Made by a program: the position numbers and the translations under genes | The notes under the pieces: model-generated | Databases searched by the model: none | What the model saw: only the letters and a program-made list of their open reading frames with translations | Told to the model about the DNA's origin: nothing | Assembly: GCA_964016885.1 (NCBI GenBank) | Contig: OZ024741.1 | Coordinates: 176,390,001 to 176,454,000 of the forward strand | Reading direction: 5' to 3' | Length of the DNA stretch: 64,000 nt | Source: Eledone cirrhosa | Lineage: Eukaryota | Part shown: one piece after another, positions 1,921-52,217 of the stretch | How positions within the stretch are numbered: the first letter of the stretch is position 1 | How the letters are laid out: each line of letters opens with the position of its first letter

Positions 1921-1987
<67 letters not shown>

Positions 1988-2010
1988 CCTCTCTCTTTCT
2001 TCCCCCCCCC

Positions 2011-2060
<50 letters not shown>

Positions 2061-2062
<2 letters not shown>

Positions 2063-3951
2063 TACCCTCTCTGAAGCCGTTCTGGTTGTCGCTGAGCCTC
2101 TTCTCCATCTCAGGCTGGATCCTGTTAAGAATCATCCTGTTGAGGGTCTTTGCTACAAGTGACGTCAGTGAGATACCCCGGTAGTTGTTGGTGTTAGAGA
2201 GATTTCCCTTCTTTGGCACTGGGAAGATGTTACTGATCCTCCACTGATTCGGGGCAACTCCTTTCTCCAGTGCCCGGTTACAGAACCCCAGGATGATATC
2301 ATAAAAATCACACCTCTTCATCACCTCTGATGCCACTCCATCTTCTCCATGAGCCCTTCCCTCCTTGATCCTCTTCTTGGCTCTCTGAAGCTCCTCTCTG
2401 GTGAAGGGCTCTGTCTCAATATCCAGTTCCTCAAACAGCCGCCTGATCTCCCCAGTGCTCTGCGCTGTGGAGGGTGATTCTCCAAGTAGGGTCCTAAAAT
2501 GGTCTAGCCATTTCCTCTTCCTTTCCTCGGCCCCGTTCCCTGGATCTGACTCGAACACCGTCTCTTCCTCCCTGGGATCTCATTGATGATCATCCAGCTC
2601 TCCTTACATCCAGATCTGTCAACTGCTCTCTCCATACTTCTGATCTTCTCTAGCAGTGCCTCCTCTCTGGCCTCAGTGTAAGCGGTACAGAGTTGTTCCC
2701 TCATCACCTCCACAGTCTCCATCCTCTCCTCCGTAGGATCAGCATGGAATTGGTCCTTGGCAGCTTTAAGGTGTTCTCTGGCTGCACACATATCCTGATG
2801 CCGAGGAGGATATTAGAGGGAGCTAGAGCAAAGTGCCTTCCTGCGGTCATGGTTTTCATTGACTTTAGGAAGGCATTTGATTCTGTGGACCGTCACTGCC
2901 TGATGAAGATCTTACAGGCTTATGGAATCCCCAAGAAGATAGTGGACCTGATATCACTGCTCTACACCAACACCAAAGCCCAAATCATTACACCTGATGG
3001 GATGACAGAGTTCTTTCAGATACTGGCTGGAGTGCTCCAGGGAGATACGTTGGCCCCCTAACTTTTTATCATCGTAGTGGACTATTGTATGCGCCTTGCA
3101 CTGGAGAAACACAAGGACTCTGGCTTTACTGTAGCACCGGCTCAGAGCAGGAGAGTTAAGGCGAAAAAGGTATCAGATGCTGAATTTGCCGACGACATAG
3201 TTTTGGTGACAAATACAGTGAAGGAGGCAGAGGATTTGATGCAAGAGGTTGAGACTGTGTCGATGAGTGTGGGGCTGAGAATGAATGAGACTAAAACAAA
3301 CTATCTGGTAGAGAATGTTGAGAAGCCGGAGGGGATCGCTAATGTAGCGGGAAGCCGCTAGAATTGGTTGAGGGCTTCCTGTATTTGGGAGCAAAGATTG
3401 GGAATACAGAGAATGATGTGGTTGAGAGGAAGAGCAAAGCCTGGGCGGCGTGCCACAGCTTGAGATCAGTGTGGAAGTCGGACCTTCGTAAATACCTAAA
3501 GATCCGGCTCTTCATTGCTGTAGTGGAGTCTGTGCTGCTGTACGGGTCCGAGACTTGGACACTGACCAAGAAACTCACTCAGATGGTGGATGGGTGCTAC
3601 ACGAGAATGCTGAGGATGGCTCTGAACATTAATCAGTATACACGGAGGATGAAAAACTCAAAGTTGTATGGGAGCCTCCCAAAAGTCAGCTCAAAAGTGA
3701 CACAGAGGAGACTGAGGTTAGCTGGACATGCTCACCGACATCCAGAGTTGACATTGCACTCAGTGCTCCTGTGGGAGCCCTACATGGACACACTGGAAGT
3801 GGAAGACCAAGGTTAACGTATGTTGATGCCCTAAGGACAGACACTGGTCTGTTGGAGACGCAGGACATGGCAGCGATAATGAGGGACAGAGACCGCTGGA
3901 GAGAACTCGTCCATGGATCTCGGGAATTTTACCCGCCTTAGATAGATAGAT
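2061..3951 (+). mobile_element. RTE-like non-LTR retrotransposon, 5'-truncated with 5' inversion; pseudogenised ORF2
   Basis: Minus part 2061-2790 encodes the pre-RT region (W..HF..LL, PVPKKGNLSNTNNYRGISLTS, NQNGFREGR). Plus part from about 2789 continues with FIDFRKAFDSV, GVLQGDTLAP, FADDIVL, YLG, LLYGSETW, LRLAGH. It has stops and frameshifts and a (TAGA)n 3' tail. Confidence 0.9.
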
Positions 3952-9537: not shown

Positions 9538-9589
<52 letters not shown>

Positions 9590-10153: not shown

Positions 10154-12112
10154 TTATACTTCTCTTAGGTCAGTGTTGTTTGTTTGGGTGTTGTTGTTGT
10201 TCCACTCATTCTTTCTGTTTAGCTTTGGTCTTCTAATTTCTATTTCACTGGCCTCTCTGATTTGCCTATCTGCTGGGTCATTCCTATGTTTAGATATTAT
10301 TCTAATTTCTATGTTGTCTATGTTACCGTCATGATGTTGTCTAGCATGTTCGTATAGTACTGACCCGTTTTTTCGTCCTTTTAGTTCCCCCCAGTGTTGG
10401 TCTATCCTTTCACCTATGCTACGAGCTGTCTCACCTATGTATGTTGTTGTCGTGTTTCTACAAGTACCCTCTGTACATCTTATGCTATAGACTACGTTTC
10501 TAGTTTTACAGTTTATCCGGGGGTTCACCTTACATATGATACATTTCCTATTGGTACAGTGGGTTTTCTTAAAAGGGTAGGTTTTGCTGATCAGGGATTT
10601 TATGGTGGTTCCTGGCTTTTCTACCACCTTTATTTTTAAGTGGGTCTTTCTCAGGGCCTTTCTACACTGGTTAGCTAATTTCCCTCCAGGGGTGGCGTCC
10701 ACAAACATGACACTCTGATATCTCTGGTTGTCGTACCATGATGTGGCCTTCCCTATCTTATGTCTAGCCCTATCTAAGCTATTCCATGATTTGCTCCTGT
10801 ATAGTGGGCAAATTCCTTTCATGTCCAGTTCTATGAGGGTCTTATACTTTTCCATGGCTCCTTCGTATACTCTGACTCTGTCTCTTTGGTTGTAGCCAGA
10901 GAACTGCATGCGGTTGATGAAGTGTTGGATGTGTCCTTCCATTTCTGTTGGGTTGCACATGCTGGACACATTCTTCATCACTCGTACCAAATCTGCGATC
11001 AGAATATTAAACTTAGCACTACTGGACATTGCTGAGTTTTTGAGTATCAGGTATTTGGAGGCCATGGGTTTAGCATAGTGTGAGTGGAGAATTTGGGCTC
11101 TCTCGTCTATAGTGTTAATCCAGAGTTCTGTGTCTAATACAGGTAGTCTATTGTTAGGGTGTTTGGAAGGGAAGTCTATAGTTACAGTTATACTCTGGTG
11201 TATGGAATTAGCTATCTGCTGGATGCTTTCCATCGTGCTACGTTCTAAATCAAACTTGTTAGTGCTCTCTAGTGGGGGTGTTCTTATAACTATATTGATA
11301 TCGTCTACATAACGAGAGTACATGATGAGGTCTATGGAGCTTTCATTAAGGAGATCTTTAAGTCTCCTTTCCCACCATACCATGAAAAGGTTGGCAACAT
11401 CGCCAGCTATGCTGACGCCGATGGCTGCTCCCTCATTTTGGGTGTAGATTTTCTCATTGAACTTAAATATGTGGCCCTTTAGGGTAGTTTTGATACTAGC
11501 CCCTATTGCATGTGCGACCATTTTTCTTACCTGATCAGTGTTTTGGGGGGTCCGTATAGCTTTGGTCCACCCAATCCACCTTCCTATGGGAGTCTTTTTA
11601 GCCATTGAGGTTATGGTGGGGGGTCTACCTCTTATAGGTCTACTAGGGCAGAAACATCTAAGGTCATGGCTGTCTAGGTAGTCAGTGTCGTAGGTAAGTC
11701 TAAGTAGGAGGCCCAGTTCGTCTGTGTCGACGTCGCAGAACTCCACCTCACTCTCAATGATCATCTCCACACATCTTTTCACAGCAAAATCAATGTTAAT
11801 GGATGGGTACAGTGACACCACATCCATGCTGCCTATTATGCAGTTGGATAGGCTCCTGTTTTTGTTGCACTCACTGATTCTGCTGAGGAGGTCCTCTGTA
11901 CTTTCACATACATCTGGGGACATCTTGATTATGGGGCGTATAACCATTGAGAGGAAGTAGGAGATCCTGTAGTTGCTAGCTATATTAGCTCCGCATACAG
12001 GTCTTGTTGGTGGTCCTGTTGTCGGGTCGTCGACTGTCTTGTGGTCTTTGCCGGGCCCATACAAGGGTGGTATGCCATTGTTAGACGCCTGGAAGTTGTT
12101 GGCAGTGCGTCT
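10154..12112 (-). CDS. PLE polyprotein, 5'-truncated (RT + Zn-finger linker + GIY-YIG endonuclease)
   Basis: PPLYG..KDHK, TRPV, motif A SMDVVSLYPSI, motif B GAAIGVSIAG, RYVDD, LPVLD, CxxxxCxxC, VVYSIRC..YIGET; open frame of about 650 codons. The annotated ATG at 12145 lies in the inverted arm. Confidence 0.95.
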   Translation of the reverse strand, partial: RRTANNFQASNNGIPPLYGPGKDHKTVDDPTTGPPTRPVCGANIASNYRISYFLSMVIRPIIKMSPDVCESTEDLLSRISECNKNRSLSNCIIGSMDVVSLYPSINIDFAVKRCVEMIIESEVEFCDVDTDELGLLLRLTYDTDYLDSHDLRCFCPSRPIRGRPPTITSMAKKTPIGRWIGWTKAIRTPQNTDQVRKMVAHAIGASIKTTLKGHIFKFNEKIYTQNEGAAIGVSIAGDVANLFMVWWERRLKDLLNESSIDLIMYSRYVDDINIVIRTPPLESTNKFDLERSTMESIQQIANSIHQSITVTIDFPSKHPNNRLPVLDTELWINTIDERAQILHSHYAKPMASKYLILKNSAMSSSAKFNILIADLVRVMKNVSSMCNPTEMEGHIQHFINRMQFSGYNQRDRVRVYEGAMEKYKTLIELDMKGICPLYRSKSWNSLDRARHKIGKATSWYDNQRYQSVMFVDATPGGKLANQCRKALRKTHLKIKVVEKPGTTIKSLISKTYPFKKTHCTNRKCIICKVNPRINCKTRNVVYSIRCTEGTCRNTTTTYIGETARSIGERIDQHWGELKGRKNGSVLYEHARQHHDGNIDNIEIRIISKHRNDPADRQIREASEIEIRRPKLNRKNEWNNNNTQTNNTDLREV

Positions 12113-13501
12113 AACACTGATCAGGTAAGAAAAATGGTCGCACATGCAATAGGGGCTAGTATCAAAACTACCCTAAAGGGCCACATATTTAAGTTCAATG
12201 AGAAAATCTACACCCAAAATGAGGGAGCAGCCATCGGCGTCAGCATAGCTGGCGATGTTGCCAACCTTTTCATGGTATGGTGGGAAAGGAGACTTAAAGA
12301 TCTCCTTAATGAAAGCTCCATAGACCTCATCATGTACTCTCGTTATGTAGACGATATCAATATAGTTATAAGAACACCCCCACTAGAGAGCACTAACAAG
12401 TTTGATTTAGAACGTAGCACGATGGAAAGCATCCAGCAGATAGCTAATTCCATACACCAGAGTATAACTGTAACTATAGACTTCCCTTCCAAACACCCTA
12501 ACAATAGACTACCTGTATTAGACACAGAACTCTGGATTAACACTATAGACGAGAGAGCCCAAATTCTCCACTCACACTATGCTAAACCCATGGCCTCCAA
12601 ATACCTGATACTCAAAAACTCAGCAATGTCCAGTAGTGCTAAGTTTAATATTCTGATCGGAGATTTGGTACGAGTGATGAAGAATGTGTCCAGCATGTGC
12701 GACCCAACAGAAATGGAAGGACACATCCAACACTTCATCAACCGCATGCAGTTCTCTGGCTACAACCAAAGAGACAGAGTCAGAGTATACGAAGGAGCCA
12801 TGGAAAAGTATAAGACCCTCATAGAACTGGACATGAAAGGAATTTGCCCACTATACAGGAGCAAATCATGGAATAGCTTAGATAGGGCTAGACATAAGAT
12901 AGGGAAGGCCACATCATGGTACGACAACCAGAGATATCAGAGTGTCATGTTTGTGGACGCCACCCCTGGAGGGAAATTAGCTAACCAGTGTAGAAAGGCC
13001 CTGAGAAAGACCCACTTAAAAATAAAGGTGGTAGAAAAGCCAGGAACCACCATAAAATCCCTGATCAGCAAAACCTACCCTTTTAAGAAAACCCACTGTA
13101 CCAATAGGAAATGTATCATATGTAAGGTGAACCCCCGGATAAACTGTAAAACTAGAAACGTAGTCTATAGCATAAGATGTACAGAGGGTACTTGTAGAAA
13201 CACGACAACAACATACATAGGTGAGACAGCTCGTAGCATAGGTGAAAGGATAGACCAACACTGGGGGGAACTAAAAGGACGAAAAAACGGGTCAGTACTA
13301 TACGAACATGCTAGACAACATCATGACGGTAACATAGACAACATAGAAATTAGAATAATATCTAAACATAGGAATGACCCAGCAGATAGGCAAATCAGAG
13401 AGGCCAGTGAAATAGAAATTAGAAGACCAAAGCTAAACAGAAAGAATGAGTGGAACAACAACAACACCCAAACAAACAACACTGACCTAAGAGAAGTATA
13501 A
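12113..13501 (+). CDS. Inverted second copy of the PLE ORF (RT motif B to GIY-YIG)
   Basis: Identical protein except IAD/IGD and CNP/CDP; begins at NTDQVRKMVAHAIG. Confidence 0.9.
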   Translation, partial: NTDQVRKMVAHAIGASIKTTLKGHIFKFNEKIYTQNEGAAIGVSIAGDVANLFMVWWERRLKDLLNESSIDLIMYSRYVDDINIVIRTPPLESTNKFDLERSTMESIQQIANSIHQSITVTIDFPSKHPNNRLPVLDTELWINTIDERAQILHSHYAKPMASKYLILKNSAMSSSAKFNILIGDLVRVMKNVSSMCDPTEMEGHIQHFINRMQFSGYNQRDRVRVYEGAMEKYKTLIELDMKGICPLYRSKSWNSLDRARHKIGKATSWYDNQRYQSVMFVDATPGGKLANQCRKALRKTHLKIKVVEKPGTTIKSLISKTYPFKKTHCTNRKCIICKVNPRINCKTRNVVYSIRCTEGTCRNTTTTYIGETARSIGERIDQHWGELKGRKNGSVLYEHARQHHDGNIDNIEIRIISKHRNDPADRQIREASEIEIRRPKLNRKNEWNNNNTQTNNTDLREV

Positions 13502-15502: not shown

Positions 15503-16142
15503 AATGTAAGTATGTATGTATACGTACATACATATATGTATACAGACGTACATTAGCATGTATATATATACATACAGGCACACATATATATATGCACGTA
15601 TCAGTTTACCGAACATTTATTATAATGCTCGGTTTGTTCGTTTGTAAACAAACAAACAGCCTGAATTACGCCGTACAGTGTTTAGGCAACCACGTCACCT
15701 TTTTGTTCAACACATTTATCGTTTTCGGTGCGCCTGGCCGACTGAACTCACTCGATATGCAAATTAGGCTGCTCAGCCTTTAATTTTCATAAGGAAAGTA
15801 TATACTTTCGGACGTTCAACCATCTGGCAGAAAGGTATACGGTGCTGACGATAGCTAATAAGCTTGAAACTAGTACATCGTTCCTGTGTCAGTGTTGAAC
15901 AAAAAGGTGACGTGGTTGCCTAAACACTGTACGGCGTAATTCAGGCTGTTTGTTTGTTTACAAACGAACAAACCGAGCATTATAATAAATGTTCGGTAAA
16001 CTGATACGTGCATATATATATGTGTGCCTGTATGTATATATATACATGCTATTGTACGTCTGTATACATATATGTATGTACGTATACATACATACTTACA
16101 TTTAAGTAAGTGCCGTACTAAGAGTGAGAAATGACATTTCGT
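15503..16142 (+). mobile_element. Non-coding HHR element family A (retrozyme-like): one ~430-nt unit plus inverted 5' copy
   Basis: Unit 15713-16142; 15503-15712 is the reverse complement of 15893-16102; homologous to 29739-30423 and 43708-44318. Confidence 0.85.
15840..15880 (+). ncRNA. Minimal type I hammerhead ribozyme (family A)
   Basis: cggtg CTGACGA t agct aata agct t GAAA ctag TA catcg; stem III is the palindrome ACUAGU. Confidence 0.85.
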
Positions 16143-17069: not shown

Positions 17070-17232
17070 AAATTGAGGTTGGTAATGGCACATGGAATAT
17101 ATAAGAGACAGAATACTTTTTTGTGAAAAAACATAATTTTATAAGGTAAGGAAATAATAAAGGGTACAAATCAACATTTTAAGTAAGGGCCTGAAATTTA
17201 CACCTACACCACGTAAACCAAACTTCCCCGAA

Positions 17233-19380
17233 ATGAAGGATGACATCATGGAATACTGCCGAAAGCTGCGACTAACGGAATTCTTCCACAACGACACCAA
17301 CACTGAAGACGAATCACTGGTTAGAAATAAAAGCAATTTCTGCCCACAAAAGGGAAGAAATAAAGCACTGGACACGGACTGCGAACACATCACCAACTTT
17401 CCCTATGAAACAATTACAAATAAACACACGAAATCAAACCTATCTACACACGAATGGGAAGAATTATTCACACTTAGAAACAACCCTGAGATAACTATCA
17501 AAGAAGCCGATAAAGGCAGTACTGTTGTGATTATGAATACGGACTACTATAGGACCCTCGCACTTAACATTTTAGAAAACAACACATACTATGAAAAAAC
17601 AGAAAACTACAAACACACCAAAACAATGGGGAACCTTTTGACCTTACTGAATAAATACCGCAACAGCTTAACCACAAAAGAGTTTAACTATATAAGCCAC
17701 TTCAAATGCAATACAAGCTCTTTTTACGGCTTACCGAAACTTCACAAATGTAAACCCATAAACGATGCATGTGACACCTCAACCAACAATTACATTGAAC
17801 TAACACCACCAGAAGACCTAAAACTCAGGCCAATTATAGCAGGCCCTACATGTGAAACCCACAGACTTAGCAACTTTCTGGACATCCTACTGAAACCCTT
17901 TCTACAACATATACAGAGCTACATACGAGATGACCTTGACATGCTGAAACACCTCCCTAAAACAGTAAGTGCAAATACAATTCTTGTCTCCTTTGACGTA
18001 ATAAACCTCTACACAAACATACCTCACAACTATGGAATAACAGCAGTCCAATACTGGCTTAACACACACCCATCAGAAATACCGACACGCATCAACACAG
18101 ATTTTATCACTGACGGACTCCGCTTTATCCTACAAAATAACTACTTCACATTCAATGGTTCAACATACAGACAAGTATCAGGTACGGCAATGGGCACGAA
18201 AGTAGCACCCACATATGCCAACCTAGTCATGGGATTCCATGAACAACAAATATACAGTCAGTCCCTTCTCTTATTTGGAGACTCTTTCCACACACACCTC
18301 AAAGCCAATTGGAAAAGATATCTAGACGACTGCTTTATCCTATGGCAAGAAGACATTAACTCACTTACTACGTTTAAAAACATGATAAACAACATAGATA
18401 ATAACATACAATTCACAATGGAATCCAATCCTAAGGAATTAGCCTTCTTGGATATTCTCATCTCTGTAATAGACGGGAAATTAGATACAGATATATTCTA
18501 TAAACCCACAGATTCCAAGCAATACCTCTTTTTCACATCAAGTCACCCAAAACATACAAAACTTAACATTCCTTACAATTTGGCCAAACGTATATGTACC
18601 ATAGTATCAGATCCACCTAAACGGGAGCAAAGACTAAAGGAACTAAAAGACACCCTTATCTTAAGAGCCTTTCCACTTGAAATAATCAACAATGGAATAG
18701 ACAGGGCAAAACACCTAAATCCCCATCAACTTAACAATCCAAAACAGAAAACCACACTCAACACCCTGCCATATGTATCCACTTTCAACCCCAGAAATAC
18801 CGAAATGTTTGATCACCTACACAAAAACCTCCCCATCCTACTTAAAGATGTAAAAATGAAGTCTATTCTTGAAACACACAAGATCCTTAAAAGTAAAAGA
18901 CAACCCAAATCACTTAAACGCATTCTCACTGGACCAAATATGCCCAAACCAATCCTCAACCCTACAGTTACCAAATGTGGTAGAACAAACTGTGGAACGT
19001 GCCTCTACCTCACTGAAGGACAAACATTTACATTCAAAGATGGCCAAACATTTACAGTAAAAAACAATTTCACCTGCAACTCGGAGAACTTGATTTACGC
19101 AATAACTTGCGGTGGGTGCAAACACAACTACATAGGACAGACGGGCACCTCATTACGCAAAAGAATGACCATCCACCGCCAACAAATCCGGGACGCTAAC
19201 ACAAGAAAAATCCCCTTGAGCAGCCATATTGCGAACTGCGCAGGAATGACACTACCCAACTTTAAAATCTTCCCCTTCTACAAGTGCTCAGATTCGTTCA
19301 CACAACAACAAAGAATAAACAAAGAAAATCTATTCCTTAACAAATTTAAACCAAAACTAAACGGGTTATCACCCCAATAG
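17233..19380 (+). CDS. PLE RT-GIY-YIG polyprotein (715 aa, uninterrupted)
   Basis: ADKG, FYGLPKLHK, LRPII, SFDVINLYTNIP, GTAMGTKVAP, RYLDD, FLD, CGRTNCGTC, LIYAITC..YIGQT. The frame is open upstream to 17167 and includes LSKGLKFTPTP. Confidence 0.95.
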   Translation: MKDDIMEYCRKLRLTEFFHNDTNTEDESLVRNKSNFCPQKGRNKALDTDCEHITNFPYETITNKHTKSNLSTHEWEELFTLRNNPEITIKEADKGSTVVIMNTDYYRTLALNILENNTYYEKTENYKHTKTMGNLLTLLNKYRNSLTTKEFNYISHFKCNTSSFYGLPKLHKCKPINDACDTSTNNYIELTPPEDLKLRPIIAGPTCETHRLSNFLDILLKPFLQHIQSYIRDDLDMLKHLPKTVSANTILVSFDVINLYTNIPHNYGITAVQYWLNTHPSEIPTRINTDFITDGLRFILQNNYFTFNGSTYRQVSGTAMGTKVAPTYANLVMGFHEQQIYSQSLLLFGDSFHTHLKANWKRYLDDCFILWQEDINSLTTFKNMINNIDNNIQFTMESNPKELAFLDILISVIDGKLDTDIFYKPTDSKQYLFFTSSHPKHTKLNIPYNLAKRICTIVSDPPKREQRLKELKDTLILRAFPLEIINNGIDRAKHLNPHQLNNPKQKTTLNTLPYVSTFNPRNTEMFDHLHKNLPILLKDVKMKSILETHKILKSKRQPKSLKRILTGPNMPKPILNPTVTKCGRTNCGTCLYLTEGQTFTFKDGQTFTVKNNFTCNSENLIYAITCGGCKHNYIGQTGTSLRKRMTIHRQQIRDANTRKIPLSSHIANCAGMTLPNFKIFPFYKCSDSFTQQQRINKENLFLNKFKPKLNGLSPQ

Positions 19381-26440: not shown

Positions 26441-27249
26441 CTTAATGTGTACGTGTGTCCGATACACACAGACACATATTTATATGTATTTCAACTCAAA
26501 AAATTCAATTGATTCGCTTATTGATATTATATCTCTGTTGCTCCGATGTGCATGTTGTGGTGTTCTGGTCGTGTTTACCATTCACTGTGTTTTTCCATTA
26601 CCTTGGAATGTAATGTTTTGGTCATCAATAGTCCGGCAAGCGCATTCCTCTCTTATATTGTGGAGAATGGTGTTCTGGTCCTCAGTAAACATTTGGGTCA
26701 TCAGGAGGGGCGGTGGTTCTCAGTTTCAACTGCGACAATACATATGTGTTACTCTACATATCGTGCTCCTCTCAAAGAAGAGTATTATAGGAGGAATTCA
26801 TGCCAAACACCACATATAGGGAAGACTTCTACAGAAAAAATATACATACATACACACATATATACATATCATACACACACATATACACATATACACATAC
26901 ATATATATATATACATATCACATATACACATACGCACAATATAATACACATGTATACAATATACATATATATATATATACAATATACATGTATACAATAC
27001 ACATACACATGCATGCACACACGTACACACACATATATACATATGCGTGTGTGTGTGTGTGTGAGAGAAAAGGAGAATACACACTCACACACACACACAC
27101 ACATACACACACGCACACAAACACAAACCTTGTAGGGGACTGTTCCACCCTTAGGCTACCTATCTATCTGGATTATGGGTTGGGGGGGAGCTATAGTCAA
27201 GGAGGGGTATGTCTAGGTGGGGGTTGCGTAATATATGTTACGTCTATGT

Positions 27250-28643
27250 GCTAGGTTTAAAATAGAAGAAGGAACTCAGGATTTTGTGTTGGCAAGAGGA
27301 GAACATTTCCGATTTCCTGTTAAGCACGTTCAGTTTAGAATGTATTATGGCATGGCATTCCAGCAAACACAGGTCACAACTCCCGCTTTTCGGTTGGTAT
27401 GGCGTGGATCTAGTAAGCTTCTTACAAAAGAGTTTGTATGGGGTACTATTATTTTTTAAAAAGGAGATGTATCCCGCCAGTGAGGTGGCATTCTTATGTC
27501 TATCGTGGCTAAATGTGTACATATGCGCGTTAAATCTAGTTTTAAATGTATTGGACGTTGATCCTATATATGTTTTGGTAGAGTTGTGTGTGGTTACGTC
27601 ACATGCATATACGATGTTTTTCATAAGGCAAGCCCCCCTTAGGGGACAATTACTATCCGCCTACAATTACAACTGCGGGTTCGATCAGTTAGCGTACCTC
27701 CCGAACTTTGGTTACTAGCATTATCACTAGGTGCCTCTATATCATTAGATGGCTCAGTGATGCTATTATGTTGACCATTTTCCAGTGTAGTCGGTTGCTG
27801 GTGGTTAACTGCCATTTTAATTGCTTCAAAACCTTCCCTAGTTTTCCTAATGTTCGTGCGTGATAGGTGTTATGCGAGGTTAGGTGTGGTCGAATAGGAT
27901 AATTTAATCACGTTTTTGTTAATTATGTTGCGATATCTATTGCCTGGTGGGAAGTTTTTTTCTAATGATGAGAAGAATACTCTGGGGAGGTTAGTGAGGA
28001 CCTCAGAGTTAAAAGGTGGGTTAAAATACGTGTTTTTCCTTCTTCTATTTGTCTTATCTGTGGGGTGAGTCTCGTTACTGTGCGTACTATTTTGTAGGGT
28101 TCCGTTATTAACGTTAGTGGCGTTGTCTGTTTTGCTTAAGCCCGGATGGTTTATATTCATGGCATGATCATTTGCTGTTTTAGAGTCGTGGTGAGGGTCT
28201 CTAGTATTGTATCTACGTGGTTTACATTTAGCTGGGTTACCGCCATTAGGGTTCTTACTATTATTCTTGCCTCTAAGTTGGTTAGGCTTTGGGGCCATAC
28301 TATGTGTGATTATGTTGGTAGGTTTCACACTCATGGTTTGGAAGTCCTTATGTATATATGATAATCTATTCCCGTAACCAGATTCTGCTAGGGCTTTGTC
28401 ATAATACTCTGCATTGGAGTTGAAGATACTCTAATTACAGGACAGTCTGCTAATTCTATTAGAGTCTCCCCTGGGAATAGCGTTTAGGACTGATTTGGGA
28501 TGGTTGGAGCTGGCGTTTACATATGTTAGTCTATCATTAGGTTTATGGTAGGGTGCAAATATTTTAGTTTCTAGGTCAATGGTGGCGTCTAGGAAGTTTA
28601 CTGTTTTGTCATTTGCATCTATGGTAATACTTAGATTAAAGCT
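27250..28643 (-). pseudogene. 5'-truncated PLE of a third lineage (FNPPF-type linker), with stops and frameshift
   Basis: [77 protein letters not shown]. Confidence 0.9.
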
Positions 28644-28841
28644 AAATATATATATGTATATATGTGTATATATGTGTATATGTGTGTGTATATGTATGTG
28701 TGTGTATGTGTATATATATATGTATATATATATATATATGTATATGTATGTATATGTGTGTATATGTGTGTATGTATATATATATATATGTATGTGTATG
28801 TATATATATTTGTGTGTATGTATGTGTGTATGTATGTGTGT

Positions 28842-28882
<41 letters not shown>

Positions 28883-28948
28883 AGTGTGTATATATATATG
28901 TGTGTATATGTATATATATGTGTATATATCTGTATATGTGTGTATATG

Positions 28949-29034
<86 letters not shown>

Positions 29035-29083
29035 GTATGTGTGTGTATGTATGTATGTGTATATGTGTGTATGTGTGTGTGTG

Positions 29084-29142
<59 letters not shown>

Positions 29143-29738: not shown

Positions 29739-30423
29739 GTAAATGGAAAAAATTAAACGAAATTTCATTTCTCACTCTTAGTACAGCTGTTACTTAAATA
29801 TAAGTATGTATACGTACATACATATATGTATACAGACGTACAGTAGTATGTATACATATATATATATACATACATGCACACATATATATATATATGTACG
29901 TATGGATTCACAGAACATTCATTATAATGCTCGGTGTATTTGTAAACAAACATCCTGAATTAAGTCGTACAGTGTCTAGCAACCATCGTTGCTCATTTGT
30001 TCAATACTGACAAAGGAACGCTGTACTAGTTTCAAGCTTATTAGCTATCGTCAGCAACGTATACCTTCCTGCCAGAAGATTGAACGTCTGAAAGTATATA
30101 CTTTCCTTATGCATATAAACGGCTGAGCAGCCTAATCTGCATATCGAGTGAGTTAATCGGCCGGGATACCGAAAACGATAAACGGAAAAAATGAAACGAC
30201 ATTTCATTTCTCACTCTTAGTACGGCTGTTAATTAAATATAAGTCTGTATACGTACATACATATATGTAGACAGACGTACAGTAGTATGTATACATATAT
30301 ATACATATATGCACACATATATATATATATATGTACGTATGGATTCACCGAACATTTATTATAATGCGCGGTGTGTTTGTAAACAAACATCCCGAATTAT
30401 GCCGTATCGTGTCTAGCAACCAT
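29739..30423 (-). mobile_element. Family A HHR element, ~1.55 tandem units (period about 440 nt)
   Basis: Direct repeat aaa(t/c)ggaaaaa...atttcatttctcactcttagtac at 29741 and about 30180. Confidence 0.85.
30019..30059 (-). ncRNA. Minimal type I hammerhead ribozyme (family A)
   Basis: CGUUG-CUGACGA-UAGCU AAUA AGCUU-GAAA CUAG UA-CAGCG. Confidence 0.85.
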
Positions 30424-32260: not shown

Positions 32261-32363
32261 AACAAAATACAGCCAACATGATATTGCGAAAGGTCAGCAT
32301 TTTTAATCTTACCCATAATGGTGATTCAAACAGCAAACGATACCTTGTTAGAACTGGACGCAG

Positions 32364-32394
<31 letters not shown>

Positions 32395-32397
<3 letters not shown>

Positions 32398-34198
32398 CGT
32401 TTCTGAATTTGTTTAGCAAGATTCTTTGTCTGAAATCGTGTGTTGAAACCGATGACCTGAAGAAAATGATTGCACATGCGGTAGGGGCCAGGATAAAACT
32501 AACCCTTAAGGAACATATGTTCAAATTTAATGGAAAAACATATGCCCAAGAGGAAGGAGCAGACATTGGTGTTAGCATTGCAGGCGACATAGCTAACTTA
32601 TTCATGGTATGGTGGGACAGTAGACTTAAACTTAAGCTTAAAGAACAATTAGAAGACCCCTTAACCCTGATAATGTACTCCCGCTACGTTGATGATATAA
32701 ACATCGTAGTTAAGACACCCCCACTAGAGAACAGTCAGGAACTAGAGAAAAACACAATGGAAAGCATCCAGCAAATAGCTAACTCCATCCAACAGAGCAT
32801 TAGAGTTACTATAGACTACCCAAGTAAACACCCCAACCATCGATTACCTGTACTAGACACAGAGCTCTGGTTAGATACCATTAATAACAAAAAACAAATC
32901 CTCCATTCCCATTATGCCAAACCCATGACTTCCAAACATCTGATCCACCGAAACTCGGCCGTTTCGGACCATACCAAAATCAACATTTTGATTTAGGATT
33001 TGGTACGGGTGAGGAGAAACGTGTCCCGCATGTGCAACCCCGAAGAACTAGAGAGACACATACAACACTTCATCCACCGTATGCAGTTCTCTGGCTACAA
33101 TCAGAGAGATAAAATCAGAGTATATAGAGGAGCCAGAACCAAATGGGAAAAAATGGTAAATAATGACATAAATGGGACCTGCCCCTTGTATAGGAGCACA
33201 TTTTGGAATAGAATAGAAAGAACTAGGAACAAGGCTAATAGAATAAACTCATGGTATGATAGCAATAAATACCAGAGTGTAATGTTCATCGATACAACCC
33301 CTAGAGGTGAATTAGCTTACAAATTTAGAAGGGCCCTAAATAAACATAAACTCAATATTAAGATAGTAGAAAAACCAGGTACCTCCGTAAAAACACTTAT
33401 TAGCAAGACATACCCTTTTCAAAGACCCTCAGGTATAGATAAGAAATGTATAACCTGTAAAATAAGCCCCATATTAACTGTAAAACTAGAAAAGTCGTGT
33501 ATAGCATGAGATGTACTGAAGGACAATGTAGAGACAAAAATATAGTGTACATAGGTGAGACAGCTCGTAATGTAGGGGAACGGATAAATGAACACTGGCG
33601 AGACCTTCAAGATAGTAAAGAATCATCTCTAATCTACCAACATGCTAAAATAGAACACAAGGGTAAATTAGAGAACATAGAAATAAAAATAGAATCTACA
33701 CACAGAAAAGACGCAATGTTTAGACAAATTACAGAGGCAATAAACATAAAAGAATTACAACCAAAATTAAATAGAAAATATGAGTGGAACAGCAACATCA
33801 CAACTTACAATTAAGGACAACATGAAAACACACACACACATAGAACAAACAACCAACCAGTAACATGTAAATAAACAAATAAATAAATCAACGTAAACAC
33901 ACACAGACACCCGGATGTGGCGCATGCGCAGACTGAGCACACAACACACACACAGAAACAAAATGGCGTAGGACAGAACAAAGGAGAGGCACAGAAACAA
34001 AGAAAGGAATCCCCAGTCACTGAAGAGGTCACATAGTGTGTGACGAAAGAACTATGACAATATATAAACAACTATCTGGTTGTGGAACCAACCAACCAAC
34101 CAGAAATTCCTAAATTTAAAAATTTAATTGATAATAAATTCAAGTGAAAGCAACTGGTGCGTGTGTTTCTTATTGGCAACATGACCCTCCTAAAGTAT

Positions 34199-37409: not shown

Positions 37410-39630
37410 GGGAGAAGTGTTTAGACGGGGTCCGTATTTGTTAATGAAGTAAGATTCCTTGCTGATGCGCTAGGTGTGGGTGGCATTATCTTTACATTTG
37501 TAGAGGGGAAAGATTCTGAAGTTGGGATGATTTTGGGCGGCACAGGTATCAATGTTTTCACTCAGTCGTATTTTCTTGTATTCCCGTATTTTAATTTGGG
37601 ATCTATAGACAGTCATGCGTTGGCGGAGGCAGTTTTTGGCCTGGCCTATGTATTGTTCTCGACAACCTGAACAAGTTAATACATATATTAGATTTTCCGA
37701 TGCACATGTGAAATTGTGTTTTACTATAAAACGTTGTCCATCTTTGAAATAGAATTCCGAACCCTCTATTAGGTTGATGCAAATGCCACAGTTGGGTCTA
37801 TCGCATTTTTTTACAGTGGGTTTCGTTGTTGTGGTTGGCAGTACTTTGGCATGTGTTAAGATGTTTTTCATTGACTTGGATTGTCTTTTGCTCTTTATGA
37901 TATCGTGTGTTCGTAGAATTTGGTTCATTCTATGTTCTGGAGGAAGGTGTCAAAGGCCTCATTGTTGAGGGGGTTGTGTGTGGAGATGTATGGAAGAGAT
38001 TTTAGTTTTGGTTGATTTACTTTAGGGTGTCTAAGGTCCTGGGTACTGAGTTTTAGGGCACGTTGGATTTCATTGTCAATTAGTGATGCAGGGTAGTCCC
38101 TGCCTATGAGTGTGTCCTTTAGTTCTTGTAGCCGTAAGTAGCAGATGTTTTTATTGGAGACTATAGTACAGATTCTCTTGGCTAAGTTGTAGGGAATATT
38201 AATTTTAACGTGTCTAGGGTGGCAAGAGTTGAAGGGGAGATATTGCTTGGAGTCTGTGGACTTGTAGTATATGTCTGTTTCTATTTTTTTGTTATGGATC
38301 TTAATGAGGATGTCGAGGAAGGGGAGTTGTTGATGGCTGTATTCCATCGTGAAGTTAATATTTGTGTTGAGCCCATTTATAAGGGTGTGAAATTCTTTAA
38401 GTTTTTCGATGTTTTCGTGCCAAAGGATGAAGCAGTCATCTAGATATCGCTTCCAGTTCCTTTCAATGTGTAAGTGGAGAGTGTTTCCAAATTTGTTTAG
38501 GACTTTAGTGTAGAGGGTGATTTCCAGGTATCCCATGACTAGGTTGGCATAAGTAGGGGCTGTTTTCGTTCCCATAGCGGTCCGAGATTTCTGCCTGTAG
38601 GGTTTGTTATTGAAAACGAAGTAATTGTTCTCCAAGATAAATTTGAGTCCCTCTATCACGAATTCTTTTTTGATGCGTTGTGGGAGTTCATTGTGGAAAT
38701 TATCCAGCCAGAATTGGATAGCTTCTATTCCTAGGTTGTGGGGGATGTTGGAGTATAAGTTGACTACATCGAACGTCACTAGTAGGGTTTGTTCAGAAAG
38801 TGGCATATTAGGGAGGTGATTGAGCATATCTAGGTCGTCCCTTATATAGCTTTTGATGTGCTTGAGGAAGGGTTTGAGAAGGGTATCAATGAAGTTGCTA
38901 AGACGGTGCGTTTCGCAAGCGGGGCCTGCTATTATAGGTCTTAATTTGAGATCATTGGGTGAGGGGACATTGATGACTATATCTGTGGCTTCCTTGCATG
39001 CCTTACTGATTGATTCGCTTTTATGTACTTTAGGGATACCGTAGAAAAGGCTGGATTTACTTGTGAAGTCTGTGATGAAGCTGGATTCCTTGTTAGTGAG
39101 TCCTTCTTTGTATTGGTTGATTAGAGTTTTTAGGTTTCTCATAATTTTCTGTTGATTGTAGTGTTCAGCCTTTTCGTAGTATGTTTCGTTTTCCAAAGTG
39201 GAGAGCGCTAAGTTGATATAGAATTATGTCTCCATTAGGACTACTGTACTCCCTTTATCAGCCTCTTTAATTGTAATGGTTATGTCGGTTTTTAATCTAT
39301 TTAATTCTTCCCATTCTTTCTTGTTGAGGTTTGGCTTGTGTTTTTGTCTGTGCATGTGTTGGTAAGGGAAGTTTGTGATGTGTTCACAGAATTCGTCCAG
39401 GATTTTATTTCTACCTTTTGAAGGGGTGTAATTGCTTCTATTTCTGGCTAATGATTCATCCTCATATGGTCGAATAGCTGTTCACTAAGTCGTAACTTTC
39501 TACAGAAGTCTGTGATGTCTTCCTTCATTTCATAGTAGTTAGGACGTAGTGGGGTCGGTGTGAATTTAAGACCTTTGGAGAGTAAGTTGATAAGGTTGGG
39601 TGTTGGTTCTGCACTTGTAAGATTGATCAT
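37410..39630 (-). pseudogene. PLE RT-GIY-YIG ORF broken by frameshifts and stops
   Basis: LSKGLKFTPTP, FYGIPKVHK, LRPII, FDVVNLYSNIP, AMGTKTAP, RYLDD, CDRPNCGIC, LIYVLTC..YIGQ; paralogue of 17233-19380. Confidence 0.92.
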
Positions 39631-40721: not shown

Positions 40722-40937
40722 TACGTTCCTATATATATATATATATATATAGTTATACGTAGACTACACCAACTCCAGCCAGAACAACTTCAACTAAATA
40801 AATACGCCTTTAGCCTCGACGTTGTCTCCCTCTACACTACAGTCCCCGCTCATCCAGCTGTCGATTTATTGACGGACTGCGTGGCCGCAGAGGACATCTA
40901 AGGCTACGGCCTCCACCCGACATACATACACCAGCTT

Positions 40938-42011
40938 TTGTCCTTCACAGTAGACAACACGTACTTCATCTTCCACACATACATACAGACAACAGGGTTA
41001 CCCATGGGATCCAGCCTATCGGGCCTGCTGGTCATCACCTACATGAACCAGCTAGAATGCCGAGCCCTCAACCCCTGCCATTCTCATATCTTCTTCACCC
41101 GATATGTAGATGACATACTCATCCTTACATCATCCCGTGAGGAAGCAGATAAAATATACACAACATTCCCCAGCATGGACGCCAGTATAAAGTTCAGCAT
41201 GGAACACCCCGATGACCGCGGATCCCTATCCCTACTGGACTTCCGACTCATGGTAACAGAGGAAGGCAACATCCACAGCTGCTTCTATAAAAAAGCCGCC
41301 AGCAGGGACCTGTTCGTACATTTCAGATCGGCCCTCCCACTCCGTGCCAAGGTCGGATACATAAGGAACGAACTCGCACGTATCCGGAACAAATGCACCG
41401 ACGCTAGAGACCAGGACACACACACCACACATTTCCTGGAAGTACTCAAACTGAACGGATACACGACATCCACCACAAACCGTGCCAGAAAGAACAGAGG
41501 ACACCACATCCGAGGCACGAACACTTGCTTCCTGAAGCTCCCACACTTCAGTGAAGAAACAACAACAGCCATCCACAGAGCTATCAGACGAGAGGGACTA
41601 GATATCCAACTGGCCCACTCGCGTCCTTCTCTACGCGGACAGCTAACCAAAAGATACTCCACCAGACATGACAACTGCTGCAGACTAGCCAACTGCCCCA
41701 TCAACGACACAGACTCATGCCACCAGGCTTACGTCGTATACAGACTAGAGTGTGACAAATGCAACAACTTCTACGTAGGTAGCACCACCAGACCACTCCA
41801 CCTAAGAATAAAAGAACACCTCAATACTAACGCTTCCTCATTTAAGAAACATCTAGTTAAATGCAAAAACACCGACAAAACCATAACAGTTAGGATAGAA
41901 ACTAAGGAAAGAAACCTCGGCAATCTTAGAATTAAGGAAGCACTAATTATAGATAAAACACAACCACCAATCAATAATGGACTAGAACTCAACACCCAAT
42001 TTATAACCTGA
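40938..42011 (+). CDS. PLE RT (motif B onward)-GIY-YIG, partial
   Basis: 357-aa open frame with RYVDD and GIY-YIG motifs. Confidence 0.85.
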   Translation: MSFTVDNTYFIFHTYIQTTGLPMGSSLSGLLVITYMNQLECRALNPCHSHIFFTRYVDDILILTSSREEADKIYTTFPSMDASIKFSMEHPDDRGSLSLLDFRLMVTEEGNIHSCFYKKAASRDLFVHFRSALPLRAKVGYIRNELARIRNKCTDARDQDTHTTHFLEVLKLNGYTTSTTNRARKNRGHHIRGTNTCFLKLPHFSEETTTAIHRAIRREGLDIQLAHSRPSLRGQLTKRYSTRHDNCCRLANCPINDTDSCHQAYVVYRLECDKCNNFYVGSTTRPLHLRIKEHLNTNASSFKKHLVKCKNTDKTITVRIETKERNLGNLRIKEALIIDKTQPPINNGLELNTQFIT

Positions 42012-43707: not shown

Positions 43708-44318
43708 ATGGAAAAAATGAAATTTCATTTCTCACTCTTAGTACGGCTGATACTTAAATGTAAGTATGTATACGTACATACATATATGTATACAGACGTA
43801 CAGTAGTATGTATATACATACATACAAGCACATATATATATATGTACGTATGGGTTTACCGAACAATTATTATAATGTTCGGTTTGTTTGTAAACAAACA
43901 GCCCGAATTATTAGCCGTACAGTGTTCGGCAACCATCGATGGCCTTTTGTTGAACAGTGAGAAAGGAACGATGAACTAGTTTCTAGCTTATTAGCTGTCA
44001 TCAGCACTGTATACCTTCCTGTCAGTTGATTGAACGTTTGAAAGTGTACACTTTCCTGATGCATATTAACGGCTGAGCTGCCTAATTTGCATATTGAGTG
44101 AGTTAGTCGGCCGGGCGTGCCGAAAACGATAAATGGAAAAAATGAAATTTCATTTCTCACTCTTAGTAAGGCTGATACTTAAATATAAGTATGTATACGT
44201 ACATACATATATGTATACAGACGTACAGTAGTATGTATATATATATACATACAACGATGGTTGCCGAACACTGTACGGCTAATAATGCGGGCTGTTTGTT
44301 TACAAACAAACGGAGCAT
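43708..44318 (-). mobile_element. Family A HHR element, partial tandem (period about 425 nt) with short inverted piece
   Basis: atggaaaaaatgaaatttcatttctcactcttagta at 43708 and 44133; 44255-44318 is inverted relative to about 43870-43938. Confidence 0.85.
43969..44009 (-). ncRNA. Minimal hammerhead (family A)
   Basis: CAGUG-CUGAUGA-CAGCU AAUA AGCUA-GAAA CUAG UU-CAUCG. Confidence 0.7.
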
Positions 44319-44320
44319 TA

Positions 44321-44652
44321 GGAAGGGAGATAAGCTGACAGATCTGTTTCATACAGTTGGTGCTCATCAGACCCTAGTACTCGCCGACCTCTGCCGAAAA
44401 TTATAGAGGCTGGATTCTTATAGAATTCCAGTAATAATAAGCAGCTGAATATACAGAGCGATTGCCGGTCCAGCAAAAATAAAAAATTAGGATTGGTGCT
44501 CTGAAATAGTGATGTATACATGAATGTATGTATATTATATTTGGTAATATAGTGTATGTTTAATTAAAAACATTTTGAAGACCTTGCGCTATTGTCTTAA
44601 AGTAGTGACTATGTCACTTCTTTTTTCAGCAAAGGAAGGGAGATAAGCTGAC
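44321..44652 (-). mobile_element. Non-coding HHR element family B, ~313-nt unit
   Basis: Direct repeat ggaagggagataagctgac at 44321 and 44634; homologous to 51675-51976. Confidence 0.75.
44332..44375 (-). ncRNA. Minimal type I hammerhead ribozyme (family B)
   Basis: AGGGU-CUGAUGA-GCAC CAACU GUAU-GAAA CAGAUCUG UC-AGCUU; stem III is the perfect palindrome ACAGAUCUGU. Confidence 0.7.
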
Positions 44653-44660
44653 ATATATAT

Positions 44661-44697
<37 letters not shown>

Positions 44698-45410: not shown

Positions 45411-46008
45411 TCTGAGTTTTTCGAATATTAATAATTGTTTCTACTTTAGACACAAGGCCAGCAAATACCCAGTGCATTACTGGTACTTTATTTTATCTAC
45501 CCCGTAAGGATGAAAGGCAAAGTCAACCTCGGCGGGATTTGAACTCAGATCGTAAAGGGACGTAACTATGCTGGAAAGCATGGCGTCCGACCCTCTACCA
45601 ATACTGCCAATCCACCGCCCTTATAATTTCTACTTTAGGCACAAGGCCAGCAATTACCCAGTGCATTACTGGTACTTTATTTTATCGACCCCGTAAGGAT
45701 GAAGGGCAAAGTCAACCTCGGCCGGATTCGAACTCAAATCCTAAAGGGACGTAACTATGCTGGAAAGCATGGCGTACGACCCTCTACCGATACTGCCAAA
45801 CCACCGCCCTTTTCGAATATTAATAATAACATTCGATTCGTTTGCAATTATGCAAACAAGCTTCAATTTTATAGAAAGAACACTTCATTCTTGCTCTTAT
45901 GTTGGCATGCGAACATAAGAGCAAGAGTGACACGGCTATAAAATTGAGGCTTGATTGCATAATTGCAAACGAATCGAATGTTATTATTAACATTCGAAAA
46001 ACTCAGAT
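45411..46008. repeat. ~200-bp palindrome whose left arm is interrupted by the SINE dimer
   Basis: Hairpin centred at about 45907; outer arm tctgagtttttcgaa pairs with ttcgaaaaactcaga. Confidence 0.7.
45418..45827 (-). mobile_element. SINE dimer within one 18-bp target-site duplication
   Basis: Two head-to-tail SINEs flanked by ttttcgaatattaataat (45418-45435 and 45810-45827). Confidence 0.8.

Positions 46009-51612: not shown

Positions 51613-51614
<2 letters not shown>
50589..51614 (+). mobile_element. Family D non-coding fold-back, ~470-bp arms plus ~80-nt tail
   Basis: 50589-51060 is the reverse complement of about 51068-51534; tail to 51614; (TA)n flanks. Confidence 0.9.
51428..51521 (+). 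ncRNA. Type I hammerhead, U3-A8 core, long loop II
   Basis: acccc TTGATAA g tt cggcta [~37 nt] tagccg t c GAAA cggc ttgagctca gccg TC ggggt. Confidence 0.65.
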
Positions 51615-51674
<60 letters not shown>

Positions 51675-51677
<3 letters not shown>

Positions 51678-51976
51678 TGTATATATAGTGTATTTTGCAA
51701 TACACTGTATGCTTAATTAAAAGCATTTCGAAGACCTTATGCTATTGTTTTAGAGTAGTGACAGTCTCACTTACTTTAAATTTTCAGCAAATAGGGGAGA
51801 TAAAGCCGACAGAGCTATGTTTCGTACTGATTGGTACCTATCAAAGCCAAGTACTCCTCCTGTTTGCTGAAAATCATGAATGTTTGATTCTTATAGAATT
51901 TCAGTTCCTGATTATTACTAGAAATTCTATAAGAATCAAACATTCATGATTTTCAGCAAACGGCTTTATCTCCCCT
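51675..51976 (-). mobile_element. Family B copy with 5' fold-back and decayed HHR (about 51801-51850)
   Basis: Homologous to 44321-44652; GGCU-UUGAUAG-GUAC CAAUCA GUAC-GAAA..UGUC-GGCU; hairpin 51862-51961. Confidence 0.7.
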
Positions 51977-52217
51977 GAAATACCAGTGTCTTGGAATTTA
52001 GCCCCCGCTTGCCCTCTTCCATCCACTGAATATTTTTGTATAAGTTCCCTGGGTCCGCGCATCGCCAGGTATCTTAGCTGAGAATGATTCCCTAATGACG
52101 AAAAGGCTTCTCCATGATCTCCATTTGGAGACTATGTATATTCCCTTTCAGAAACTAATTAGTTGGAGTGAAATTTAATTAAGTAAGCTAATTACTATAA
52201 TTTTCTTATTTTACGTT

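What the first reader, a model, noticed from the sequence alone, without database searches (positions are those of the whole stretch)
44321..44652. Family B: ~313-nt unit whose integrated 5' end coincides with the ribozyme cleavage site
Seen: on the minus strand the copy starts at (U)GUC-AGCUUAUCUCCCUUCC directly after (TA)n and runs 313 nt to a full HHR ending in the same GUC-AGCUUAUCUCCCUUCC, i.e. one cleavage-site-to-cleavage-site monomer. In the second copy (51675-51976) the inverted arm jumps to C-GGCTTTATCTCCCCT, again exactly at the predicted scissile bond. Inference: the template was an HHR-processed monomer, and retention of GUC 5' of the cut hints at a re-ligated circular RNA.
Basis: partly seen in the sequence, partly recalled or inferred. 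Interest (0 to 1): 0.8.

Follow-up and report, generated by a model that had tools for sequence, protein, structure and literature searches.

The report
Ribozyme repeat copied across its cut
This is one damaged copy of a family of thousands of short repeats carrying a predicted self-cutting RNA; they were likely pasted in by a Penelope-type jumping-gene enzyme, and because most copies run straight across the predicted cut rather than starting at it, the template was probably a closed RNA ring or an uncut tandem transcript.

Summary
The letters are as reported, but this is not a cut-to-cut monomer. The copy is 4 + 313 + 16 nt, its hammerhead has broken helices, and its 3' end is atypical.

It belongs to a non-coding, roughly 318-nt family with over 3,000 exact end matches. 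The family's type I hammerhead shows compensatory changes, including C3-G8 to U3-A8.

In 382 sampled arms, 3' ends sit at two sites 138 and 168 nt after the cut, usually in (AT)n. 5' ends are scattered: 12 lie within 5 nt of the nearest cut (9.2 expected), and 275 cross it. 276 arms are in head-to-head pairs, and 116 of 125 pairs use one start site each. This is the Penelope "tail" signature.

Successive laps and partner arms are equally related, and 132 arms exceed one unit. That fits a monomer read more than once, but not exclusively. Seven insertions have both arms starting at the cut, a rare linear route.

Verdict: a new member of the known animal non-LTR retrozymes, likely moved by Penelope enzymes. 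The scan noted a cut-site start bias on other DNA before (e1-9822609).

The parts
44653..44695 (.). (AT)n array abutting the 5' end of copy 1
44650..44653 (-). 3-4 nt (TGTC) upstream of the first predicted cut; the T also fits the flank
44337..44649 (-). one full 313-nt unit of family B, from the base after one predicted cut to C17 of the next; 36% G+C
44332..44375 (-). type I hammerhead: core CUGAUGA 44370-44364, helix II 44363-44351, GAAA 44350-44347, palindromic helix III 44347-44338, C17 44337; G.G in helix I and C.A in helix II in this copy
44321..44336 (-). first 16 nt of the next unit; non-canonical 3' end (family norm 138 or 168 nt)
44252..44320 (+). inverted arm of a different hammerhead repeat (family A) joined tail-to-tail to copy 1; likely a later deletion between two neighbouring insertions, or a template switch
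51614..51687 (.). (TA)n array at the 3' end of copy 2
51675..51905 (-). copy 2 main arm (U3-A8 subfamily): 3' end at the 138-nt site, runs across the cut (C17 at 51808), 5' end near unit position 221
51901..51961 (+). copy 2 inverted (head-to-head) arm, unit positions about 206-262
51962..51977 (+). unit positions 1-16 after an internal deletion that removes the ribozyme; carries the same G at +1 as the main arm

Best explanation
The 313-nt stretch is a damaged copy of a non-coding hammerhead repeat whose insertions end at two fixed sites in (AT)n and begin at scattered places, and it was likely pasted by a borrowed Penelope-type reverse transcriptase/endonuclease reading a template that likely runs on across the predicted cut, probably a ring-closed monomer. 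Steps: (1) Inferred: a locus with two hammerheads is transcribed. The palindromic helix III would pair two copies, both would cut, and the monomer would be closed, either ligated or held shut by its own long stem. (2) Seen as a pattern, enzyme inferred: both ends of a break in (AT)n prime cDNA, one 138 and one 168 nt downstream of the cut. (3) Inferred: both cDNAs copy the same unit sequence backwards across the junction for any length, often more than one lap. (4) Seen as a pattern: the two arms meet head-to-head, usually over a few shared bases, or one arm alone joins the flank. (5) Inferred: rarely the RNA is still linear, both cDNAs run off at the cut and join by the 4-nt palindrome there.
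For: Two 3' ends 30 nt apart: 200 and 182 of 420 arms, 38 other; 311 of 382 are followed by AT repeats; 276 of 382 are head-to-head. 116 of 125 pairs have one of each end (p 8e-25), in all four samples including the one not anchored at an end (30 of 33). This matches the two RT start sites, AT-rich nicking and extension of both strands shown in vitro for an anole Penelope-like element (PMC11167929), and the 30-40-bp tail at one end (PMC8557442). Continuity across the cut: 275 of 382 cross the nearest cut with no peak there; 132 of 382 exceed one unit. Same template: last lap, previous lap and partner arm differ at 324, 317 and 331 of 6041 sites. Rare variants are shared by all three at 16 of 5078 sites vs 2 of 62506 in random trios, with no excess of last-lap-only sharing (7 vs 5 and 12). 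The partner is the top match in 15 of 53 pairs, median rank 4 among about 200. Ribozyme kept by compensatory change: 3-8 pair C-G 130, U-A 140, other 6 of 276. Seven independent-looking both-arms-at-cut insertions.
Against: No RNA data bear on a ring. Equal lap distances also fit transcripts of a few young masters with identical units, or gene conversion between neighbouring arms. A covalent ring gives no reason for the higher stop rate just inside the second cut: 0.50 per 20 nt vs 0.22 before and 0.12 after. That excess is weaker in the second sample (p 0.03 and 0.06), absent in single arms (p 0.54), and 25 of 36 best-scoring U3-A8 copies that reach this zone pass it. The rise in stop rate after one lap fits a smooth Weibull curve equally well. 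Only 10 of 382 arms span two whole ribozymes. In the anole element, uncut RNA was the dominant substrate in vitro. No autonomous partner with a homologous end was found. The symmetric class has a control: 4 symmetric junctions at the 12-nt helix III palindrome, and the exact pattern for the other main subfamily gave 0.
Confidence: 0.55

Rival explanations
1. Same enzyme and same two start sites, but the template is a linear, uncut tandem transcript from a few young multi-unit master loci or arrays; the ribozyme cuts rarely or acts at another stage.
For: Fits the crossing of the cut and the two ends equally well. Uncut RNA was the dominant substrate for the anole element. Copies of a subfamily are close to one another (median 7.8% apart vs 5.4-5.9% within an insertion), as few masters would give. 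Arms of over three units exist. Minimal Penelope hammerheads cut poorly in vitro (PMC4209133).
Against: Linear copying can only shorten arrays and cannot homogenise laps, yet laps stay concordant across subfamilies whose arms match other subfamilies' copies at only about 75-87%, and show no last-lap-only variants. No long array appeared in the listings seen, but these cover only part of the genome.
Confidence: 0.28
2. The template is a linear 1.5-unit RNA whose 5' end lies at the upstream cut, made either by cutting only that site (the downstream one shielded by the bound protein) or by an internal promoter starting there.
For: 5'-end density is fairly flat to about -324 and then drops; the step model beats Weibull in the pooled set (log-likelihood -2134 vs -2147). 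25 of 39 arms that reach -289 stop by -328.
Against: Not reproduced as a step in the second sample (-828.0 vs -827.1). 14 of 382 arms pass it, as do most best-scoring copies. There is no sharp peak at that cut (6 vs 7.8). A long stem near the cut offers shared sequence to the partner arm and can create a hot zone. It does not explain homogeneous laps.
Confidence: 0.12
3. One reading: the usual template is a cut-to-cut linear monomer, so integrated 5' ends mark the cut.
For: Seven both-arms-at-cut insertions, one more in another subfamily, and two copies with (AT)n at or next to +1.
Against: 275 of 382 arms cross the nearest cut; 12 vs 9.2 expected within 5 nt. Among 16 hits of a junction pattern, the true 5' junctions lay mostly at +4 to +8, where the unit shares bases with (TA)n.
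Confidence: 0.05

Closest known systems
Metazoan non-LTR retrozymes (Cervera and de la Pena 2020, PMC7229834; Li et al. 2026, 10.64898/2026.07.22.740005)
   Same: Unit of 150-450 bp, low G+C, type I hammerhead, no protein, thousands of copies, proposed ring-RNA template and proposed Penelope partner.
   Different: Here most copies are partial tandems of 0.3-1.5 units in head-to-head pairs, not dimer-to-multimer arrays. The link to Penelope comes from the insertion footprint, not from homology to a pseudo-LTR. Cutting and ring RNA are untested.
EN+ Penelope-like elements: Poseidon of Anolis carolinensis (PMC11167929), Penelope of Drosophila virilis (PMC2377424), structures summarised in PMC8557442
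   Same: Two RT start sites about 30 nt apart downstream of a hammerhead cut, AT-rich targets, variable 5' truncation, partial tandems, an inverted 5'-truncated neighbour, tail at one end only.
   Different: Family B has no RT or GIY-YIG frame, and no autonomous element with a homologous end was found.
Penelope-associated hammerheads with palindromic helix III and the U3-A8 core variant (PMC4209133)
   Same: Palindromic helix III suggesting dimeric action; the same U3-A8 covariation was reported in Schistosoma mansoni.
   Different: Family B has a 3-4-bp helix II with a short CAA-rich loop and a long extended helix I, closer to canonical animal type I motifs than to the large-helix-II minimal form.
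L1 twin priming (recalled; seen only in the search listing)
   Same: Two primers from one break give an inverted, head-to-head insertion.
   Different: Here both arms start at fixed sites and cover the same part of the unit, instead of splitting one RNA between them.

Membership tests
non-LTR retrozyme | short (150-450 bp) low-GC non-coding unit | tested here: met
   313-324 nt, 34-36% G+C, longest ATG frame 34 aa in a three-unit arm
non-LTR retrozyme | type I hammerhead in each unit | tested here: met
   core and three helices with compensatory changes; 141 of 276 motif hits intact by a strict rule. Rfam gave no hit at gathering score in the window and only two sub-threshold HH9 hits in 8 loci
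non-LTR retrozyme | tandem arrangement with two or more complete ribozymes | tested here: inconclusive
   met by 10 of 382 sampled arms, up to three ribozymes in one arm; not met by either copy in the window
non-LTR retrozyme | self-cleavage in vitro | not testable with these tools
   needs a transcription assay
non-LTR retrozyme | expression as circular RNA | not testable with these tools
   no RNA run was available to lay
non-LTR retrozyme | target-site duplication longer than 4 bp when present | not tested
   ends lie in (AT)n, where duplications cannot be read
Penelope-like element (autonomous) | RT plus GIY-YIG frame | tested here: not met
   none in the unit; such frames lie elsewhere in the window and are not homologous to it
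Penelope-mobilised non-autonomous element | 30-40-bp tail at one end, from two RT start sites | tested here: met
   ends at 138 and 168 nt; 116 of 125 pairs mixed
Penelope-mobilised non-autonomous element | partial tandem with inverted 5'-truncated neighbour | tested here: met
   276 of 382 arms head-to-head; 132 longer than a unit
Penelope-mobilised non-autonomous element | microsatellite target bias | tested here: met
   311 of 382 3' ends followed by AT repeats; three of the four samples were anchored on end plus AT, so this share is inflated
Penelope-mobilised non-autonomous element | homologous pseudo-LTR in an autonomous partner | tested here: inconclusive
   none in the window or in 406 loci. 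Two chimeras with a C-rich RT-GIY-YIG family were found; in 29 other copies of one of them the first 900 nt downstream of the frame were not homologous

The most novel reading that the evidence does not exclude
A Penelope enzyme pair primes at two fixed sites on one ribozyme-cut monomer that is closed as a ring, often only nick-closed by its own stem. The genomic copies would be a fossil record of the ring intermediate proposed, but never shown, for Penelope-like elements.
Probability: 0.25. Interest if true: 0.7.

Novelty: new member of a known kind. Interest (0 to 1): 0.42.

Why it matters
The class is known, and both the ring template and the Penelope partner were proposed in print. What this family adds is a countable footprint: strict use of one start site per end, equally related laps and partner arms, and a map of 5' ends against the cut. 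How pseudo-LTRs are regenerated was called unexplained in 2008 (PMC2377424), and hammerhead function in these elements was called unclear in 2021 (PMC8557442). A 318-nt, protein-free family with thousands of copies makes ring versus linear template directly testable. It also shows that one copy starting near a cut is not evidence of cleavage.

Tried and rejected
Expression: no RNA holder listed; this is no evidence either way. Laying three coded contig runs on copy 1 gave only short pieces; none spans the stretch or bridges its junctions, so the assembly there is not independently checked.

A first peak of 5' ends at unit positions 70-90 was an (AT)n artefact and was filtered out. Apparent 5' ends at -4 were partly due to a single diverged reference and were corrected with many references.

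A hard wall at the second cut, seen in the first sample, weakened in the second sample and in best-scoring copies; it is kept only as a soft effect. A step in stop rate after one lap could not be told from a smooth curve. A class keeping exactly TGTC was not upheld: most such pattern hits were point changes or small deletions. Deletions ending at the cut are not enriched. Arm lengths in a pair are uncorrelated (rho -0.15, p 0.12).

The search for an autonomous partner failed. An initiator-like promoter at the cut was considered from recalled consensus only and not tested. Fold of the 313-nt unit: z -3.2; the 86-nt ribozyme region of copy 1 folds no better than shuffles (z -0.08). Earlier scan notes: none by sequence or in this genome.

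Full report
Numbering. Position +1 is the first base after the predicted hammerhead cut (after C17). An 'arm' is one collinear stretch of the repeat on one strand. c1 is the cut nearest an arm's 3' end; c2 is the next one upstream, at about -317.

1. Observation. The repeated 19-mer lies at 44652-44634 and 44339-44321 on the minus strand, period 313, beside an (AT)n array at 44653-44695. The copy is TGTC (44653-44650), a 313-nt unit (44649-44337) and 16 more bases (44336-44321). It then meets an inverted arm of another hammerhead repeat, family A (44252-44320). Its ribozyme has a G.G in helix I and a C.A in helix II and fails my helix scan. Copy 2 is a head-to-head pair: a minus arm from about 51905 to 51675 crossing the cut (C17 at 51808), and a plus arm 51901-51961 that jumps to +1 at 51962 and ends at +16. 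Both arms carry G instead of A at +1.

2. The family. The genome is 3.0 Gb. Exact patterns gave 946 hits for an inner 26-mer, 1,175 for the 168-nt end plus AT, and 833 and 1,079 for the 138-nt end of two subfamilies; reversed controls gave 0. Units are 313-324 nt, 34-36% G+C, with no frame over 34 aa in the three-unit arm tested. Among 276 distinct motif hits the 3-8 pair is C-G 130, U-A 140, other 6; the second helix II pair is U-A 126 and C-G 123; helix III is a perfect palindrome in 136. On 47 chosen copies, 89.9% of cells pair, 50 cells show double-sided change (0 of 500 shuffles), and slid controls pair at 10-41%. These counts are of related copies and reflect a handful of events. Rfam found nothing at gathering score in the window and two weak HH9 hits in 8 loci.

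3. Sampling. Loci were the first listed hits of four patterns, in coordinate order on contig C1, not a random draw. One search gave 30 loci plus 58 regions. One search gave 30 plus 60. Searches gave 30 plus 20 each. Hits already held were skipped, and the last four were not fetched. Ends were mapped against 26 natural copies, ignoring self-matches. I dropped arms under 45 nt, short simple-repeat or under-86% matches, arms mostly covered by a stronger opposite arm, duplicates and arms cut by a locus edge at the 3' end. That left 420 arms in 244 loci; 38 with other 3' ends were set aside, leaving 382. Mapping is uncertain by a few bases. Best-scoring BLAST loci were kept apart, except in the lap and deletion comparisons.

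4. Ends. 3' ends fall at about +138 (200 arms) or +168 (182); 311 of 382 are followed by AT repeats, a share inflated by the anchors; 276 have a head-to-head partner. In 116 of 125 pairs with two regular ends, one arm has each end (p 8e-25), including 30 of 33 in the unanchored sample. 5' ends are spread fairly evenly, about 10-28 per 20 nt, from +110 to -328. Within 5 nt of c1 there are 12 (9.2 expected); of c2, 6 (7.8). 275 arms cross c1, 132 exceed one unit and 14 pass c2. The stop rate per 20 nt is 0.22 before, 0.50 in the 36 nt up to c2 and 0.12 after (p 5e-4 and 1e-5). The second sample alone gives p 0.03 and 0.06, single arms show no excess, and 25 of 36 best-scoring U3-A8 copies pass the zone. 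A long stem joining +9..+27 to about +250..+270 gives the partner arm shared sequence there. I treat this as a soft, uncertain boundary.

5. Events at the cut. Internal deletions of 8 nt or more: 57 in 457 arms, scattered, 2 touching the cut, so the jump in copy 2 is not a pattern. Both arms starting at the cut: 3 of 125 pairs (0.35 by shuffling, p 0.002). A genome-wide pattern for the U3-A8 subfamily found 8 places, one of them a simple repeat. The other 7 each have one 138-type and one 168-type arm; six have both arms at +1 and one at +1/+3; five stop both arms at c1; their flanks share only dispersed repeats. Two of the 7 were already in my sample. The exact pattern for the other main subfamily found 0. 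A control at the 12-nt helix III palindrome found 4. So symmetric joins favour palindromes generally, and 7 at a 4-nt palindrome is modest support for rare run-off from a cut RNA.

6. One template. In 64 comparisons the last lap, previous lap and partner arm differ at 324, 317 and 331 of 6041 sites. In 54 trios, rare letters (10% or less elsewhere) are shared by all three at 16 of 5078 sites against 2 of 62506 in random trios; pair-only sharing is 7, 5 and 12. The 16 come from 10 trios, 8 of them from two. Partners are each other's top match in 15 of 53 pairs, median rank 4. This is what repeated reading of one unit predicts. Young masters with identical units, or later gene conversion, could also give it.

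7. Mechanism. Shown in sequence: two ends, their pairing, the target, scattered 5' ends, continuity across the cut, lap equality, ribozyme covariation. Inferred: the enzyme, cutting in cells and the ring. I put Penelope-type mobilisation at about 0.9. For the template I give ring or nick-closed monomer 0.55, linear uncut tandem 0.28, 1.5-unit RNA starting at c2 0.12, and cut-to-cut linear monomer as the rule 0.05. Copy 1's 3' end is most simply a later deletion between neighbouring A and B insertions: besides the window copy itself, 8 of the other 393 loci have an A match within 60 nt of a B arm. A template switch is possible.

8. Partner. The window holds several RT and GIY-YIG frames, none homologous to family B. 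Two fetched loci join a regular B 3' end to the inside of C-rich RT-GIY-YIG elements on the same strand (L024, L302; 69% alike). In 29 other copies of the L024 family the first 900 nt downstream of the frame are unrelated to B; five show a different, minimal hammerhead there. This is a lead only.

9. Literature seen. PMC11167929: parts 1-2 of 4 (abstract, main text, start of methods). 10.64898/2026.07.22.740005: parts 1-3 of 5 (through the discussion). PMC7229834: part 2 of 6, passages and the discussion. PMC4209133: parts 1-2 of 4. PMC8557442 and PMC2377424: passages. Supplements were not seen and may hold end maps or relatives of this family. The ring template giving more-than-unit copies was proposed in PMC4209133 and PMC7229834; the Penelope origin of animal retrozymes in the 2026 preprint. 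Searches listed no paper that counts 5' ends against the cut or the pairing of start sites. I saw only listings for the papers not named here, and the library lacks most subscription journals.

10. Verdict. The element is real and of a known kind. The highlighted coincidence is chance-level; the useful result is the family-wide footprint. Interest 0.42.

Noticed in passing
window 43710-44320 (-), 29740-30423 (-), 15510-16140 (+): Family A: a second non-coding hammerhead repeat, unit about 430 nt, palindromic helix III, partial tandems and inverted arms in AT repeats; matched in 38 of 394 fetched loci.
   Followed up: partly
window 10154-12172 (-) with 11951-13501 (+): Head-to-head pair of an RT-GIY-YIG element; the two arms end about 60 nt apart before (AT)n, the same one-sided tail; minimal hammerhead in the 3' region.
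   Followed up: partly
window 17161-19380 (+), 27244-29100 (-), 32352-33800 (+), 37470-39223 (-), 40902-42011 (+): Further Penelope-like RT and GIY-YIG frames of several kinds, one open for 739 aa.
   Followed up: partly
window 8885 (-) and 9483 (+): A third hammerhead-like repeat in head-to-head arrangement, with its 3' end in (AT)n at 9542.
   Followed up: no
L024:1795-2322 and L302:1788-2686: Family B 3' ends joined over about 3 shared bases to the inside of C-rich RT-GIY-YIG elements, same strand: possible template switches onto a partner mRNA.
   Followed up: partly
L119:1500-1590: A small tail-to-tail palindrome of unit positions about 6-42 with (AT)n on both 5' ends, the reverse of the usual arrangement.
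   Followed up: no
L426, L428, L434, L435 (three on contig C18): Near-identical copies of a C-rich Penelope-like element with the same downstream flank, suggesting a larger duplicated segment or array.
   Followed up: no
window 45438-45811: A 189-nt two-copy repeat whose motif resembles an octopus short interspersed element (recalled, not tested).
   Followed up: no
window 1977-3816: Fragments of a LINE-type reverse transcriptase in head-to-head arrangement (type recalled from motifs).
   Followed up: no
window 44321 and 51977: Both window copies have an arm ending at unit position +16; no such excess among the other non-canonical 3' ends listed, so probably chance.
   Followed up: partly
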